From the NCBI RefSeq assembly GCF_003334305.1, contig NZ_QOWS01000003.1: 64,000 nt of DNA; one strand, 5' to 3'. Of this stretch, positions 24,457-27,370 are shown piece after piece. Numbering within the stretch: position 1 is the first letter of the stretch; every line of letters begins with the position of its first letter. The stretch comes from Escherichia coli (GTDB lineage: Bacteria > Pseudomonadota > Gammaproteobacteria > Enterobacterales > Enterobacteriaceae). Made by a program: the position numbers.

Positions 24457-27370
24457 AATTCTTCTCTCAATAAAATATCCACAGCGATGCGATGCGTTAT
24501 TGCTGGTTTTCGTTGTCTCTGACAAACTCTTGTAAACAGAGTTATCCACAGCCTCAGGCTGTAATCTTAATTTCAAAGAAACTTCGCACGGTGAATAGTA
24601 TTTTTTTAACCTATTGATAGATAAGTTAAAAATTAAGATTCCGTTTTGTCGAGTCGATCACTTGACGATTTTATTCGTCTTGAATTGCAATGCGTTTTTA
24701 TTTTTATTCACAAGCTGTGGATGAATCAGGCGTCACGCGGTAACCCTTTTTCAATCACCCGAACCAGACGCTGTTTTTTCGGCAATTGCACTTCGACTAT
24801 GCACGCATTTCGTCTCTCTATTTGCTGCGCAATCGCCCACGCTATGTGCTCATCGAGAAGTGGGTGCTCACCTTTACGACTTTCCAGCGCTGTCAAAATC
24901 GTTTCATCCCAAGGGGCATTGCCTAATGCTACGGCGATATTACGCAGCCAACGCAGGTGACCAATACGACGAATCGCCGATCCTTCCGTGACTTTTAAAA
25001 ACTTCTCTTCGCTCCAGGCGAATAACTCAATGAGTTCCGGTGCGTGTAGCGGCTTACGCGGGCTGAAATCGTCTTCTGTAGTGAGTTGCGAATAGCGATT
25101 CCACGGGCAGATAAGCTGGCAGTCATCGCAACCGTAAATACGGTTTCCCATTAACGGTCGCAACTCTTCCGGGATCGCCCCTTCAAGTTCGATGGTGAGA
25201 TAAGAGATACAGCGGCGAGCATCGACGGTATATGGCTCGACGATGGCACCGGTCGGGCAAATCGTCATACAGGCTATGCATTTACCGCATCCTTCCTCGA
25301 CTGGTTGATCCACGGGCAGCGGAATATCGACCAGCAATTCGCCTAAAAAGAAGAAAGAACCGGCCTCGCGATTGAGGATAAGTGAGTGCTTACCTGTCCA
25401 GCCGAGCCCAGCTTTTGCAGCTAACGGGCGCTCGAGAATAGGCGCAGAATCGACAAACGGTCTAAAATTCAGCGAAACACAATGTTGCTGAATCATCTCG
25501 CCCAGCTTTTTGAGTCGGTTGCGCAGAAGTTTGTGATAGTCACGGCCCAGCGCATAACGGCTAACATAGCCGAGTTTGGGGTTTTTCAGCGTGCTGGCAA
25601 ATGCGGCGTTAGCAGGAAGGTAATTCATCCGCACGCTGATCACGCGCAGCGTACCGGGTAATAACTCATGGGGGCGAGCGCGCAGCATACCGTGACGTGC
25701 CATCCAGTCCATTTCGCCGTGGTATTGTTTGTCCAGCCATGCTTGCAGTTTGGGCTCGGACTCGCTGAGATCGGTATCGGTAATACCTACCTGCTGAAAG
25801 CCCAGTTCCAGCCCCCACTGTTTAATTTTTTGCGCTAACTGATTGAGATCGAGGGGCTCTGACATGACGGACCATACAATGAAGAAAAACCCCGTAAGTA
25901 TACCACACACCGTCTGGCACGCCGACGATATCCGCCGCGGAGAACGTGAGGCGGCAGATGCGCTGGGGCTTACACTCTATGAGCTGATGCTTCGCGCTGG
26001 CGAAGCCGCATTCCAGGTGTGTCGTTCGGCGTATCCTGACGCCCGCCACTGGCTGGTGCTGTGCGGTCATGGTAATAACGGCGGCGATGGCTACGTGGTC
26101 GCGCGACTGGCCAAAGCGGTCGGCATTGAGGTCACGTTGTTGGCCCAGGAGAGCGACAAACCGTTGCCGGAAGAGGCCGCGCTGGCACGCGAAGCATGGT
26201 TAAACGCGGGAGGCGAGATCCATGCTTCGAATATTGTCTGGCCCGAATCGGTAGATCTGATTGTTGATGCGCTGCTCGGTACCGGCTTGCAGCAAGCGCC
26301 CCGCGAATCCATTAGCCAGTTAATCGACCACGCTAATTCCCATCCTGCGCCGATTGCGGCGGTTGATATCCCTTCCGGCCTGCTGGCTGAAACCGGCGCT
26401 ACGCCAGGCGCAGTGATCAACGCCGATCACACCATCACTTTTATTGCGCTGAAACCAGGCTTGCTCACTGGAAAAGCGCGGGATGTTACCGGACAACTGC
26501 ATTTTGACTCACTGGGGCTGGATAGTTGGCTGGCAGGTCAGGAGACGAAAATTCAGCGGTTTTCGGCAGAACAACTTTCTCACTGGCTAAAACCGCGTCG
26601 CCCGACTTCGCATAAAGGCGATCACGGGCGGCTGGTAATTATCGGTGGCGATCACGGCACGGCGGGGGCTATTCGTATGACGGGGGAAGCGGCGCTACGT
26701 GCTGGTGCTGGTTTAGTCCGAGTACTGACCCGCAGTGAAAACATTGCGCCGCTGCTGACTGCACGACCGGAATTGATGGTGCATGAACTGACGATGGACT
26801 CTCTTACCGAAAGCCTGGAATGGGCCGATGTGGTGGTGATTGGTCCCGGTCTGGGCCAGCAAGAGTGGGGGAAAAAAGCACTGCAAAAAGTTGAGAATTT
26901 TCGCAAACCGATGTTGTGGGATGCCGATGCATTGAACCTGCTGGCAATCAATCCCGATAAGCGTCACAATCGCGTGATCACGCCGCATCCTGGCGAGGCC
27001 GCACGGTTGTTAGGCTGTTCCGTCGCTGAAATTGAAAGTGACCGCTTACATTGCGCCAAACGTCTGGTACAACGTTATGGCGGCGTAGCGGTGCTGAAAG
27101 GTGCCGGAACCGTGGTCGCCGCCCATCCTGACGCTTTAGGCATTATTGATGCCGGAAATGCAGGCATGGCGAGCGGCGGCATGGGCGATGTGCTCTCTGG
27201 TATTATTGGCGCATTGCTTGGGCAAAAACTGTCGCCGTATGATGCCGCCTGTGCGGGCTGTGTCGCGCACGGTGCTGCAGCTGACGTACTGGCGGCGCGT
27301 TTTGGAACGCGCGGGATGCTGGCAACCGATCTCTTTTCCACGCTACAGCGTATTGTTAACCCGGAAGTGA

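What the first reader, a model, noticed from the sequence alone, without database searches (positions are those of the whole stretch)
25863..25866. Divergent queG and nnr start codons overlap on opposite strands (CATG)
The queG ATG (minus strand, 25865-25863) and the nnr ATG (plus strand, 25864-25866) share two nucleotides, so the two divergent genes have no intergenic promoter space. Both promoters must lie inside the neighbour's coding sequence, implying antisense overlap of the 5' mRNA ends and possible mutual interference.
Basis: seen in the sequence. Interest (0 to 1): 0.3.

Follow-up and report, generated by a model that had tools for sequence, protein, structure and literature searches.

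The report
Head-to-head queG/nnr start codons overlap
Two real E. coli genes that point away from each other share two bases of their start codons, so each gene's promoter and ribosome-binding site sit inside the other gene; this layout and the resulting overlapping RNAs are already published, so the finding is correct but not new.

Summary
CATG at 25863-25866 holds the queG start (minus strand) and the nnr start (plus strand). They share two bases, exactly as RefSeq annotates MG1655 and other E. coli.

Both starts are genuine:
- CATG is invariant in 80 of 80 Enterobacteriaceae species, and in Pantoea.
- The downstream nnr ATG at 25879 is not conserved and has a weak Shine-Dalgarno.
- Salmonella moved the nnr ATG three bases in frame.

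Published K-12 RNA-seq places the nnr transcription start about 388 nt upstream, inside queG, and the queG start about 24 nt upstream, inside nnr. The roughly 414-nt overlap forms double-stranded RNA in vivo, which was recovered as RNase III products. ExcludonFinder (2025) lists queG-nnr as a divergent excludon.

My comparison of 81 sequences found only a few islands frozen at synonymous sites, and they match these signals:
- the nnr -10 box, TAAAAT, in queG codons 133-135;
- the nnr Shine-Dalgarno, in queG codons 4-5;
- an extended -10 box for queG, TGgTATACT, in nnr codons 12-14.

Whether the two genes actually repress each other has not been tested.

Verdict: real, conserved, already known, low interest.

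The parts
25863..25866 (.). CATG junction: queG ATG (minus strand, 25865 to 25863) and nnr ATG (plus strand, 25864-25866) share two bases
   Evidence: Sequence; RefSeq annotation; invariant in 80 of 80 Enterobacteriaceae species and in Pantoea
24726..25865 (-). queG coding sequence (epoxyqueuosine reductase, 379 aa)
   Evidence: ORF; annotation; colinear with 379 codons in all 81 sequences
25864..27411 (+). nnr coding sequence (NAD(P)HX epimerase/dehydratase, 515 aa), first gene of the nnr-tsaE-amiB-mutL-miaA-hfq... operon
   Evidence: ORF; annotation; operon described in PMC4161252
25851..25856 (+). nnr Shine-Dalgarno GAGGGG, 7 nt before the ATG; the same bases are queG codons Pro4 (CCC) and Leu5 (CTC)
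   Evidence: Duplex with the 16S 3' end is -7.2 kcal/mol, in the top 8% of ATGs in the window. ATCGAGGGG at 25848-25856 is one of only two near-invariant runs of 9 nt or more in queG. CCC and CTC are each kept in 80 of 81 sequences
25459..25469 (+). nnr promoter core GGTCTAAAATT, with the -10 hexamer TAAAAT at 25463-25468; lies in queG codons Asn133-Phe134-Arg135 (AAT TTT AGA)
   Evidence: The second of the only two near-invariant runs in queG. AGA is used in 80 of 81 sequences here but makes up 3.1% of Arg codons elsewhere in these genes. The published RNA 5' end lies 8 nt downstream
25476..25863 (+). 388-nt nnr 5' leader, antisense to queG codons 1-130; transcription start near 25476
   Evidence: Conway 2014 operon start at U00096.2 4391701, converted with an offset of 4,366,225 that I checked against a sequenced read. 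No Rfam match. Fold is no more stable than shuffled sequence, z = -0.75
25897..25907 (-). queG extended -10 promoter: minus strand TGTGGTATACT (TGn + TATACT); on the plus strand it is nnr codons Ser12 AGT, Ile13 ATA, Pro14 CCA and the first two bases of His15 (CAC)
   Evidence: TATACCACA at 25899-25907 is the only near-invariant run of 8 nt or more in the first 187 aligned nnr codons. Ser12, Ile13 and Pro14 are the only non-Met/Trp codons with frozen third positions. ATA and AGT are each 6.7% of their codon families in the queG genes. The Katayama laboratory's delta-PqueG deletion removes the equivalent of 25895-25925 (primer sequence)
25866..25889 (-). queG 5' leader of about 24 nt, antisense to nnr codons 1-9; transcription start near 25889-25890
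   Evidence: End of the Conway overlap at U00096.2 4392114. p19 double-stranded RNA reads reach 4392109 and the Lybecker locus reaches 4392100. The Shine-Dalgarno is weak, -2.7 kcal/mol
25476..25889 (.). About 414 bp transcribed on both strands (double-stranded RNA / excludon region); covers both ribosome-binding sites and both start codons
   Evidence: Conway overlap of 413 nt; Lybecker MS-212 'Divergent'; p19 cluster S-361 at 4391754-4392109; ExcludonFinder Table 1
25867..25875 (.). Nearly invariant block ACGGACCAT: nnr codons Thr2-Asp3-His4, and positions -2 to -10 of the queG translation-initiation region
   Evidence: Alignment of 80 species. The dual role is my inference
25879..25881 (+). 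Second in-frame nnr ATG (Met6); not the conserved start
   Evidence: Replaced by GTG, TTG, ATA, ATT, CTA, CTG or GAG in other genera; weak Shine-Dalgarno

Best explanation
The window is E. coli chromosome. queG and nnr are two genuine genes placed head to head with no spacer, so their expression signals are interleaved.

- nnr's ribosome-binding site (GAGGGG) is written in queG codons 4-5.
- nnr's promoter (-10 box TAAAAT at 25463-25468, start near 25476) is written in queG codons 133-135. It gives a 388-nt leader that is antisense to the first 130 codons of queG.
- queG's extended -10 promoter (TGgTATACT, minus strand, 25905 to 25897, start near 25889) is written in nnr codons 12-14. It gives a leader of about 24 nt that is antisense to nnr codons 1-9.

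The two promoters therefore face each other about 414 bp apart. The two mRNAs are complementary over that stretch, which includes both ribosome-binding sites. They pair in vivo, and RNase III cuts the duplex.

Shown: the overlap, both start codons, the conserved embedded signals, the RNA 5' ends and the double-stranded RNA (the last two from the literature). Inferred: that convergent transcription and duplex cleavage lower expression of one or both genes. The asymmetry suggests queG would suffer more, because its coding region lies in the duplex while only nnr's leader and first 9 codons do. The shared AT of the start codons has no mechanism of its own, since the two codons are read on different mRNAs. 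It simply marks a spacer of zero length.
For: - Sequence and annotation.
- 80 of 80 species keep CATG.
- Across 1140 nt of queG in 81 sequences, only two near-invariant runs of 9 nt or more exist, ATCGAGGGG and GGTCTAAAATT. A run of 5 consecutive frozen third positions occurred in 0.06% of shuffles.
- On the nnr side the only such run is TATACCACA.
- The frozen codons are rare ones: AGA is 3.1% of Arg codons, ATA 6.7% of Ile codons and AGT 6.7% of Ser codons.
- Published K-12 RNA 5' ends fall 8 nt downstream of each conserved -10 box. K-12 and the window are identical at all these elements.
- Double-stranded RNA was recovered by two independent methods.
- ExcludonFinder detected queG-nnr in at least 50% of 58 RNA-seq samples.
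- The delta-PqueG deletion coordinates coincide with my -10 box.
- Support for nnr ATG 25864: strong Shine-Dalgarno at the right spacing; no stop codon in its frame in 59 distinct variants, and no alternative start in 18 of them; and Salmonella changed ATG ACG to ATT ATG, an in-frame shift of the start, with ATG ATG in Klebsiella and Raoultella as the intermediate.
Against: - I found no direct measurement of interference for this pair, such as mutating one promoter and measuring the other gene, or comparing expression in an rnc mutant.
- The nnr promoter has no recognisable -35 box, and the generic promoter scan found nothing here.
- The RNA 5' ends come from RNA-seq mapping quoted second-hand in another paper's supplement. 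I could not open the primary tables.
- I found no ribosome-profiling or N-terminal proteomic evidence for either start.
- queG's own Shine-Dalgarno is weak.
- One species (L046) has a 1-nt deletion that breaks the nnr frame from ATG 25864. It lies in a run of C, so it may be a sequencing error.
- ExcludonFinder also flags yjeV-queG-nnr as a noncontiguous operon, so some nnr transcription may come from further upstream.
Confidence: 0.85

Rival explanations
1. The overlapping transcripts exist but have no regulatory role. The zero-length spacer is neutral genome compaction, the embedded signals are conserved only because each gene needs to be expressed, and the double-stranded RNA is a by-product.
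For: No functional test of interference was found. Conway 2014 reports that 136 of 388 divergent operon pairs overlap at their 5' ends, so such overlap is commonplace. Salmonella lost the exact codon overlap without disturbing the arrangement. In the datA study, delta-PqueG cells did not show the lower datA RNA or delayed replication initiation seen in rrnBT-U cells, though that study was asking a different question.
Against: The tight head-to-head arrangement persists in 80 of 80 Enterobacteriaceae species and in Pantoea. In four distant relatives queG sits 8 to 82 nt from tsaE in the same divergent layout. The double-stranded RNA is among the 20 most abundant protein-coding clusters. Persistence suggests selection but does not prove it.
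Confidence: 0.45
2. nnr translation really starts at the downstream ATG (25879, MKKNPVS...), so the coding sequences do not overlap and a 13-nt spacer exists.
For: An in-frame ATG is present in E. coli. Residues 2-11 of Nnr are poorly conserved.
Against: ATG 25879 is replaced by non-start codons in many genera. It has a weak Shine-Dalgarno, whereas a strong, conserved one sits 7 nt before ATG 25864. G25866, which is needed only for nnr's ATG, is invariant except in Salmonella, where an ATG is re-created 3 nt downstream in frame. Even if this rival were true, both promoters would still be inside the neighbouring gene.
Confidence: 0.05
3. nnr is transcribed mainly by read-through from promoters far upstream (glyVXY or yjeV, running across datA and antisense to all of queG). 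On this view the 5' end at 25476 is a processing site, not a promoter.
For: ExcludonFinder lists yjeV-queG-nnr as a noncontiguous operon. Read-through RNAs of 500-1000 nt from PglyVXY across datA are documented. No terminator-like site was found on the plus strand between 24670 and 26500.
Against: A near-consensus -10 box (TAAAAT) sits 8 nt upstream of the mapped 5' end. It is invariant in 81 of 81 sequences at synonymous sites and uses a rare Arg codon, which a processing site would not explain. Conway classed this position as a promoter.
Confidence: 0.12
4. The conserved islands reflect constraints on the host proteins or on their translation (for example rare-codon pausing), not promoters or ribosome-binding sites for the neighbouring gene.
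For: All the islands lie within coding sequence, and the SIPH motif of Nnr is conserved as protein.
Against: The conservation is at synonymous third positions and favours rare codons. Each island matches a canonical signal on the opposite-direction gene at the correct distance from a mapped RNA end or a start codon.
Confidence: 0.04

Closest known systems
Divergent excludons (Listeria mogR/fli paradigm; E. coli list in ExcludonFinder, NAR 2025)
   Same: Neighbouring genes on opposite strands whose 5' transcripts overlap, with double-stranded RNA cut by RNase III. queG-nnr is itself one of the 16 divergent excludons listed for MG1655.
   Different: Classic excludons are defined by one gene demonstrably switching the other off. 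That has not been shown here. In this case the coding sequences touch, so the overlap covers coding sequence and both ribosome-binding sites rather than untranslated regions only.
Other E. coli 5'-overlapping divergent pairs that yield p19-captured double-stranded RNA (rsd-nudC, asd-yhgN, cpxR-cpxP, plsB-dgkA)
   Same: Same class in the same data sets: 13 of the top 20 protein-coding clusters are divergent 5' overlaps.
   Different: I could not compare their intergenic spacings. For queG-nnr the spacing is -2 nt, which forces every signal into coding sequence.
Face-to-face (convergent) promoter pairs that cause transcriptional interference, such as coliphage 186 pR/pL (from my own knowledge of that literature)
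   Same: Two promoters fire toward each other across a shared transcribed segment.
   Different: Here the separation is about 414 bp between chromosomal housekeeping genes. Promoter strengths and interference are unmeasured.
Same-strand ATGA/TGATG overlaps (translational coupling); an example in this window is nnr-tsaE, which overlap by 29 nt
   Same: Short overlap of coding sequences.
   Different: In same-strand overlaps both genes are on one mRNA and the ribosome hand-over is the mechanism. In CATG the two start codons are on different RNAs, so no coupling is possible.

Membership tests
Divergently overlapping protein-coding genes | Both genes are real and both annotated start codons are the ones used | tested here: met
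   Comparative evidence only: CATG is kept in 80 of 80 species, the nnr Shine-Dalgarno is conserved, there is no conserved alternative start, and Salmonella shows an in-frame shift of the start. I found no ribosome-profiling or proteomic confirmation.
Divergently overlapping protein-coding genes | The coding sequences share nucleotides on opposite strands | tested here: met
   Positions 25864 and 25865 are shared. The annotation is identical in three RefSeq records.
Divergent excludon | Adjacent genes on opposite strands whose transcripts overlap at the 5' ends | tested here: met
   Conserved -10 boxes place both promoters beyond the junction. Published RNA ends and overlap calls agree.
Divergent excludon | The overlapping RNAs pair and are processed by RNase III | not testable with these tools
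   Literature only: p19-captured 21-22-nt duplexes across 4391754-4392109 and Lybecker dsRNA locus MS-212.
Divergent excludon | Expression of one gene lowers expression of the other (mutually exclusive expression) | not testable with these tools
   I found no experiment for this pair. This is the open point.
Extended -10 sigma-70 promoter (for queG) | TG at -15/-14 next to a -10 hexamer close to TATAAT, with the start 6-8 nt downstream and little need for a -35 box | tested here: met
   The minus strand reads TGgTATACT. It is invariant, or TATAGT in 2 species, and TGgTAAACT in Pantoea. No conserved -35 box. The mapped RNA end is 8 nt downstream. Promoter activity itself was not tested here.
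Sigma-S-preferred promoter (considered for nnr because of C at -13) | Preferential transcription by the sigma-S holoenzyme | tested here: not met
   In PMC3141248, yjeF, yjeE, amiB and mutL are in Table 2, the genes transcribed more efficiently by the sigma-70 holoenzyme (ratio 1.88-2.06).
Noncontiguous operon (yjeV-queG-nnr) | Genes on one strand are co-transcribed across an oppositely oriented gene | not tested
   Listed by ExcludonFinder. I only noted that no terminator-like site was found between 24670 and 26500 on the plus strand.

The most novel reading that the evidence does not exclude
The zero-spacer junction could be a selected reciprocal switch rather than mere compaction. On this reading the 388-nt nnr leader acts as a built-in antisense RNA that silences queG, the last step of queuosine tRNA modification, whenever the nnr-tsaE-amiB-mutL-miaA-hfq operon is strongly transcribed, and possibly the reverse as well. 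The tight divergent pairing of queG with the tsaE operon in distant Proteobacteria (8-82 nt spacers in four loci) would then be an ancient regulatory link between tRNA-modification pathways.
Probability: 0.2. Interest if true: 0.45.

Novelty: already known. Interest (0 to 1): 0.2.

Why it matters
The value is mostly practical.

- It is a clean, well-supported case where a divergent overlap of coding sequences is real and not a mis-called start. That is useful for annotation pipelines, which tend to distrust such overlaps. The mirror-image artefact also turns up here. In one Salmonella record the gene caller keeps the 2-nt overlap by using an ATT start, although a proper ATG lies 3 nt downstream.
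- It shows that 'synonymous' sites in queG (codons 4-5 and 133-135) and nnr (codons 12-14) carry the neighbour's promoter or ribosome-binding site. Recoding or codon-optimising either gene would therefore affect the other.
- By inference, a clean deletion of queG removes the nnr operon's first promoter, and a deletion or insertion at the 5' end of nnr removes the queG promoter. Phenotypes assigned to either knockout may be confounded.

It does not open a new biological question beyond the still-untested matter of whether this excludon regulates anything.

Tried and rejected
- Generic sigma-70 promoter and terminator scan around the junction: nothing found. Both promoters lack a good -35 box, so the scan's criteria miss them.
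- Sigma-S idea for the nnr promoter (C at -13): rejected once I re-read the table. The operon is in the sigma-70-preferred list.
- Primary tables of transcription start sites: the Conway 2014 supplement is not held, Thomason 2015 is not held, and the Kim 2012 supplements do not mention these genes.
- Evidence for the translation starts: the retapamulin preprint has no supplements held. The TRAINSPOTTER N-terminomics supplements and the TetRP supplements do not mention these genes. One wrong PMC id was wasted. The ROSE in-vitro start-site supplement had no hit.
- Structured RNA in the nnr leader: no Rfam family, and the fold is no better than shuffles (z = -0.75).
- A conserved upstream ORF in the nnr leader (ATG at 25482, 59 codons): rejected, because its start is CTG, GTG or TTG in other species.
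- The upstream in-frame starts that open the mechanical ORFs were rejected. For nnr, TTG at 25843 is followed by a stop (TTG TAA) in several genera. For queG, GTG at 25910 lies upstream of the mapped mRNA 5' end.
- Mid-distance relatives (Yersinia, Serratia, Vibrio): the searches returned only relatives at 82% identity or more, or at 62% or less, so I cannot date when the spacer reached zero.
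Full report
**What is in the sequence**

The window is E. coli chromosome. Bases 25300-26400 are 100% identical to strain ST2350 and 98.7% identical to K-12, and all 5426 complete E. coli genomes carry the segment. At 25863-25866 the plus strand reads CATG. CAT at 25863-25865 is the reverse complement of the queG start, and ATG at 25864-25866 is the nnr start, so the two codons share 25864 and 25865. From these starts queG gives the 379-aa protein MSEPLDLNQ..., ending at 24726. nnr gives the 515-aa protein MTDHTMKKNPVSIPH..., ending at 27411. RefSeq annotates the same 2-nt overlap in ST2350, K-12 J53 and MG1655.

**Are both start codons real?**

I fetched the orthologous locus from 80 Enterobacteriaceae species of more than 25 genera, with QueG 85-98% identical. 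The evidence for both starts is as follows.

- CATG is present in 80 of 80 species.
- All 81 queG genes are colinear with 379 codons.
- On the nnr side, codons 5-11 are hypervariable and include one 12-nt in-frame insertion. Even so, the frame opened by ATG 25864 contains no stop in any of 59 distinct DNA variants.
It is GTG in Enterobacter, TTG in Kluyvera and Trabulsiella, and ATA, ATT, CTA, CTG or GAG elsewhere. In 18 of the 59 variants there is no other in-frame ATG, GTG or TTG up to about codon 20.
- ATG 25864 is preceded by GAGGGG at a 7-nt spacing, pairing with the 16S 3' end at -7.2 kcal/mol, which is in the top 8% of all ATGs in the window. ATG 25879 scores -3.2.
- Base G25866 is needed only by nnr. 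In one Salmonella genome the junction reads CATTATG: the first codon has become ATT and the second has changed from ACG to ATG. Klebsiella and Raoultella carry ATG ATG, the plausible intermediate. An in-frame relocation of the start by one codon is what one expects if translation must begin here.
- Pantoea (Erwiniaceae) also keeps CATG with an open frame, although its gene caller chose a later start.
- One species (L046) has a 1-nt deletion in a run of C that breaks the frame. I treat it as a probable sequencing error but cannot prove that.
- I found no ribosome-profiling or N-terminal proteomic record for either protein.

**Where are the promoters?**

Published K-12 data settle this. The supplement of Huang et al. 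2020 (PMC7373196) quotes three data sets.

- Conway et al. 2014 give an overlapping-transcript entry at 4391701-4392114 in U00096.2 coordinates. It is 413 nt long and classed 'Divergent', and the plus-strand operon runs from a promoter at 4391701 to a terminator at 4408049.
- Lybecker et al. give double-stranded RNA locus MS-212 at 4391717-4392100.
- Huang et al.'s own p19-captured cluster S-361 lies at 4391754-4392109. It is one of the 20 strongest protein-coding clusters.

I checked the coordinate conversion (window = U00096.2 minus 4,366,225) against a sequenced read, CAUGACGGACCAUACAAUGAAG at 4392087-4392109. K-12 and the window differ at only 4 of 531 positions here, none in a signal. In window terms the nnr transcript therefore starts near 25476, 388 nt upstream and inside queG codon 130. 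The queG transcript starts near 25889, about 24 nt upstream and inside nnr codon 9.

**Independent support from conservation**

- Across all 1140 nt of queG in 81 sequences, mean entropy is 1.11 bits at third codon positions. Only two runs of 9 or more near-invariant columns exist: ATCGAGGGG (25848-25856) and GGTCTAAAATT (25459-25469).
- The first run is the nnr Shine-Dalgarno, written in queG codons Pro4 CCC and Leu5 CTC.
- The second run contains TAAAAT at 25463-25468, which is 8 nt upstream of the published 5' end. It is written in queG codons Asn133-Phe134-Arg135, with Arg as AGA in 80 of 81 sequences. AGA is 3.1% of Arg codons elsewhere in the same genes.
- A run of five consecutive frozen third positions arose in 0.06% of shuffles.
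- On the nnr side (187 aligned codons, third-position entropy 1.42 bits) the only near-invariant run is TATACCACA at 25899-25907. The only non-Met/Trp codons with frozen third positions are Ser12 AGT, Ile13 ATA and Pro14 CCA. ATA and AGT are each 6.7% of their codon families in the queG genes.
- Read on the minus strand this run is TGTGGTATACT, an extended -10 promoter (TGn + TATACT), and it lies 8 nt upstream of the mapped queG 5' end. No conserved -35 box accompanies it, as expected for that promoter class.
- The Katayama laboratory's delta-PqueG allele deletes the equivalent of 25895-25925, judged from the primer sequence. So this promoter position is already in use experimentally.
- The nnr promoter has no convincing -35 box. 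I wondered whether it might be sigma-S-type because of a C at -13. However, the in-vitro profiling paper lists yjeF, yjeE, amiB and mutL among genes preferred by the sigma-70 holoenzyme, so I dropped that idea.

**How it most likely works**

The two promoters face each other about 414 bp apart. The two mRNAs are complementary over that stretch, which contains both ribosome-binding sites and both start codons. That the RNAs pair in vivo and are cut by RNase III is shown by the antibody and p19 data. ExcludonFinder found the overlap in at least half of 58 MG1655 RNA-seq samples. It lists queG-nnr among 16 divergent excludons, and yjeV-queG-nnr as a noncontiguous operon.

What remains inferred is the consequence: colliding polymerases and duplex cleavage lowering the output of one or both genes. 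The geometry is asymmetric. For nnr the duplex covers a non-coding leader plus 9 codons. For queG it covers the whole leader and 130 codons. If there is interference, queG is the likelier victim. The shared AT of the start codons has no mechanism of its own, because the two codons are read on different RNAs.

The nnr leader shows no Rfam family and no unusual folding. Its apparent 59-codon upstream ORF is not conserved.

**Evolutionary context**

In four metagenomic loci whose QueG is 52-62% identical, queG lies divergently next to tsaE itself (no nnr) with spacers of 8, 40, 82 and 82 nt. A fifth locus, for which no DNA was held, has an unidentified divergent gene 39 nt upstream. The tight head-to-head pairing of queG with this operon therefore looks old, and the zero spacer is seen in Enterobacteriaceae and Erwiniaceae. 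I could not sample intermediate families.

Divergent overlaps are the rarest class. A survey of 58 genomes found 331 of 14,958 overlaps to be divergent, and only 57 of those shorter than 5 nt. The authors attribute the rarity to the need to house initiation signals.

**Verdict**

The feature is already known: it is in the reference annotation, the overlapping transcripts and double-stranded RNA are published, and the pair is named as an excludon. My contribution is cross-species evidence that pins the embedded signals to specific rare codons and rules out the alternative nnr start. Interest is low.

Noticed in passing
window 24470-24730: The replication-control locus datA lies between the tRNA-Gly genes and the 3' end of queG. 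It has a perfect DnaA box TTATCCACA at 24542-24550 and 8-of-9 boxes at 24475-24483 and 24716-24724 (reverse strand), flanking an AT-rich stretch. PMC10950094 describes read-through transcription from the tRNA promoter across it.
   Followed up: partly
window 24269-24456: Only two tRNA-Gly(GCC) genes are present (24269-24344 and 24381-24456). K-12 and the otherwise identical ST2350 record carry three (glyV, glyX, glyY). This is probably loss of one tandem copy by recombination.
   Followed up: partly
window 24690-24743: The annotated 17-aa ORF yjeV overlaps the 3' end of queG by 18 nt in convergent orientation (position derived from L001 2391-2444). ExcludonFinder lists yjeV-queG as a convergent excludon.
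   Followed up: no
window 27383-27411: nnr and tsaE overlap by 29 nt on the same strand (nnr ends at 27411, tsaE starts at 27383).
   Followed up: no
L085 2497-2503 (Salmonella enterica GCA_031587115.1): The junction reads CATTATG. The record's gene call keeps a 515-aa Nnr and a 2-nt overlap by using an ATT start, although an ATG lies 3 nt downstream, which would leave a 1-nt spacer. Salmonella also has a second CATG at nnr Met5 (AACATGAAG), which explains why some records give a 384-aa QueG.
   Followed up: partly
L046 (Kluyvera genomosp. 3, CP022114.1), nnr codons 9-11: A 1-nt deletion in a run of C shifts the nnr frame relative to the conserved ATG. It is either a homopolymer sequencing error or a real frameshift.
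   Followed up: no
window 25873-25875 (minus strand): The His4 codon of nnr (CAT) creates an out-of-frame AUG 10 nt upstream of the queG AUG within the short queG leader. It opens a 17-codon ORF (MVRHVRAPRSQSVSAKN) that overlaps the queG start. It is absent in Buttiauxella, where the codon is CTG.
   Followed up: partly
L001 6911-7101 versus window 29207-31057: mutL is annotated as frameshifted in the ST2350 record but is an intact 616-codon ORF in the window. The window therefore does not come from exactly that assembly.
   Followed up: partly
window 9275-9321 and 57426-57510: Rfam matches above the gathering score: a guanidine-II riboswitch (mini-ykkC, 50.4 bits) and the RpsF leader (110.1 bits).
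   Followed up: no
L086-L089 (metagenomic loci; QueG 52-62% identical): In these distant relatives queG is divergently adjacent to tsaE directly, with spacers of 8-82 nt and no nnr between them. The pairing of queG with the tsaE-amiB operon seems older than the nnr insertion.
   Followed up: partly
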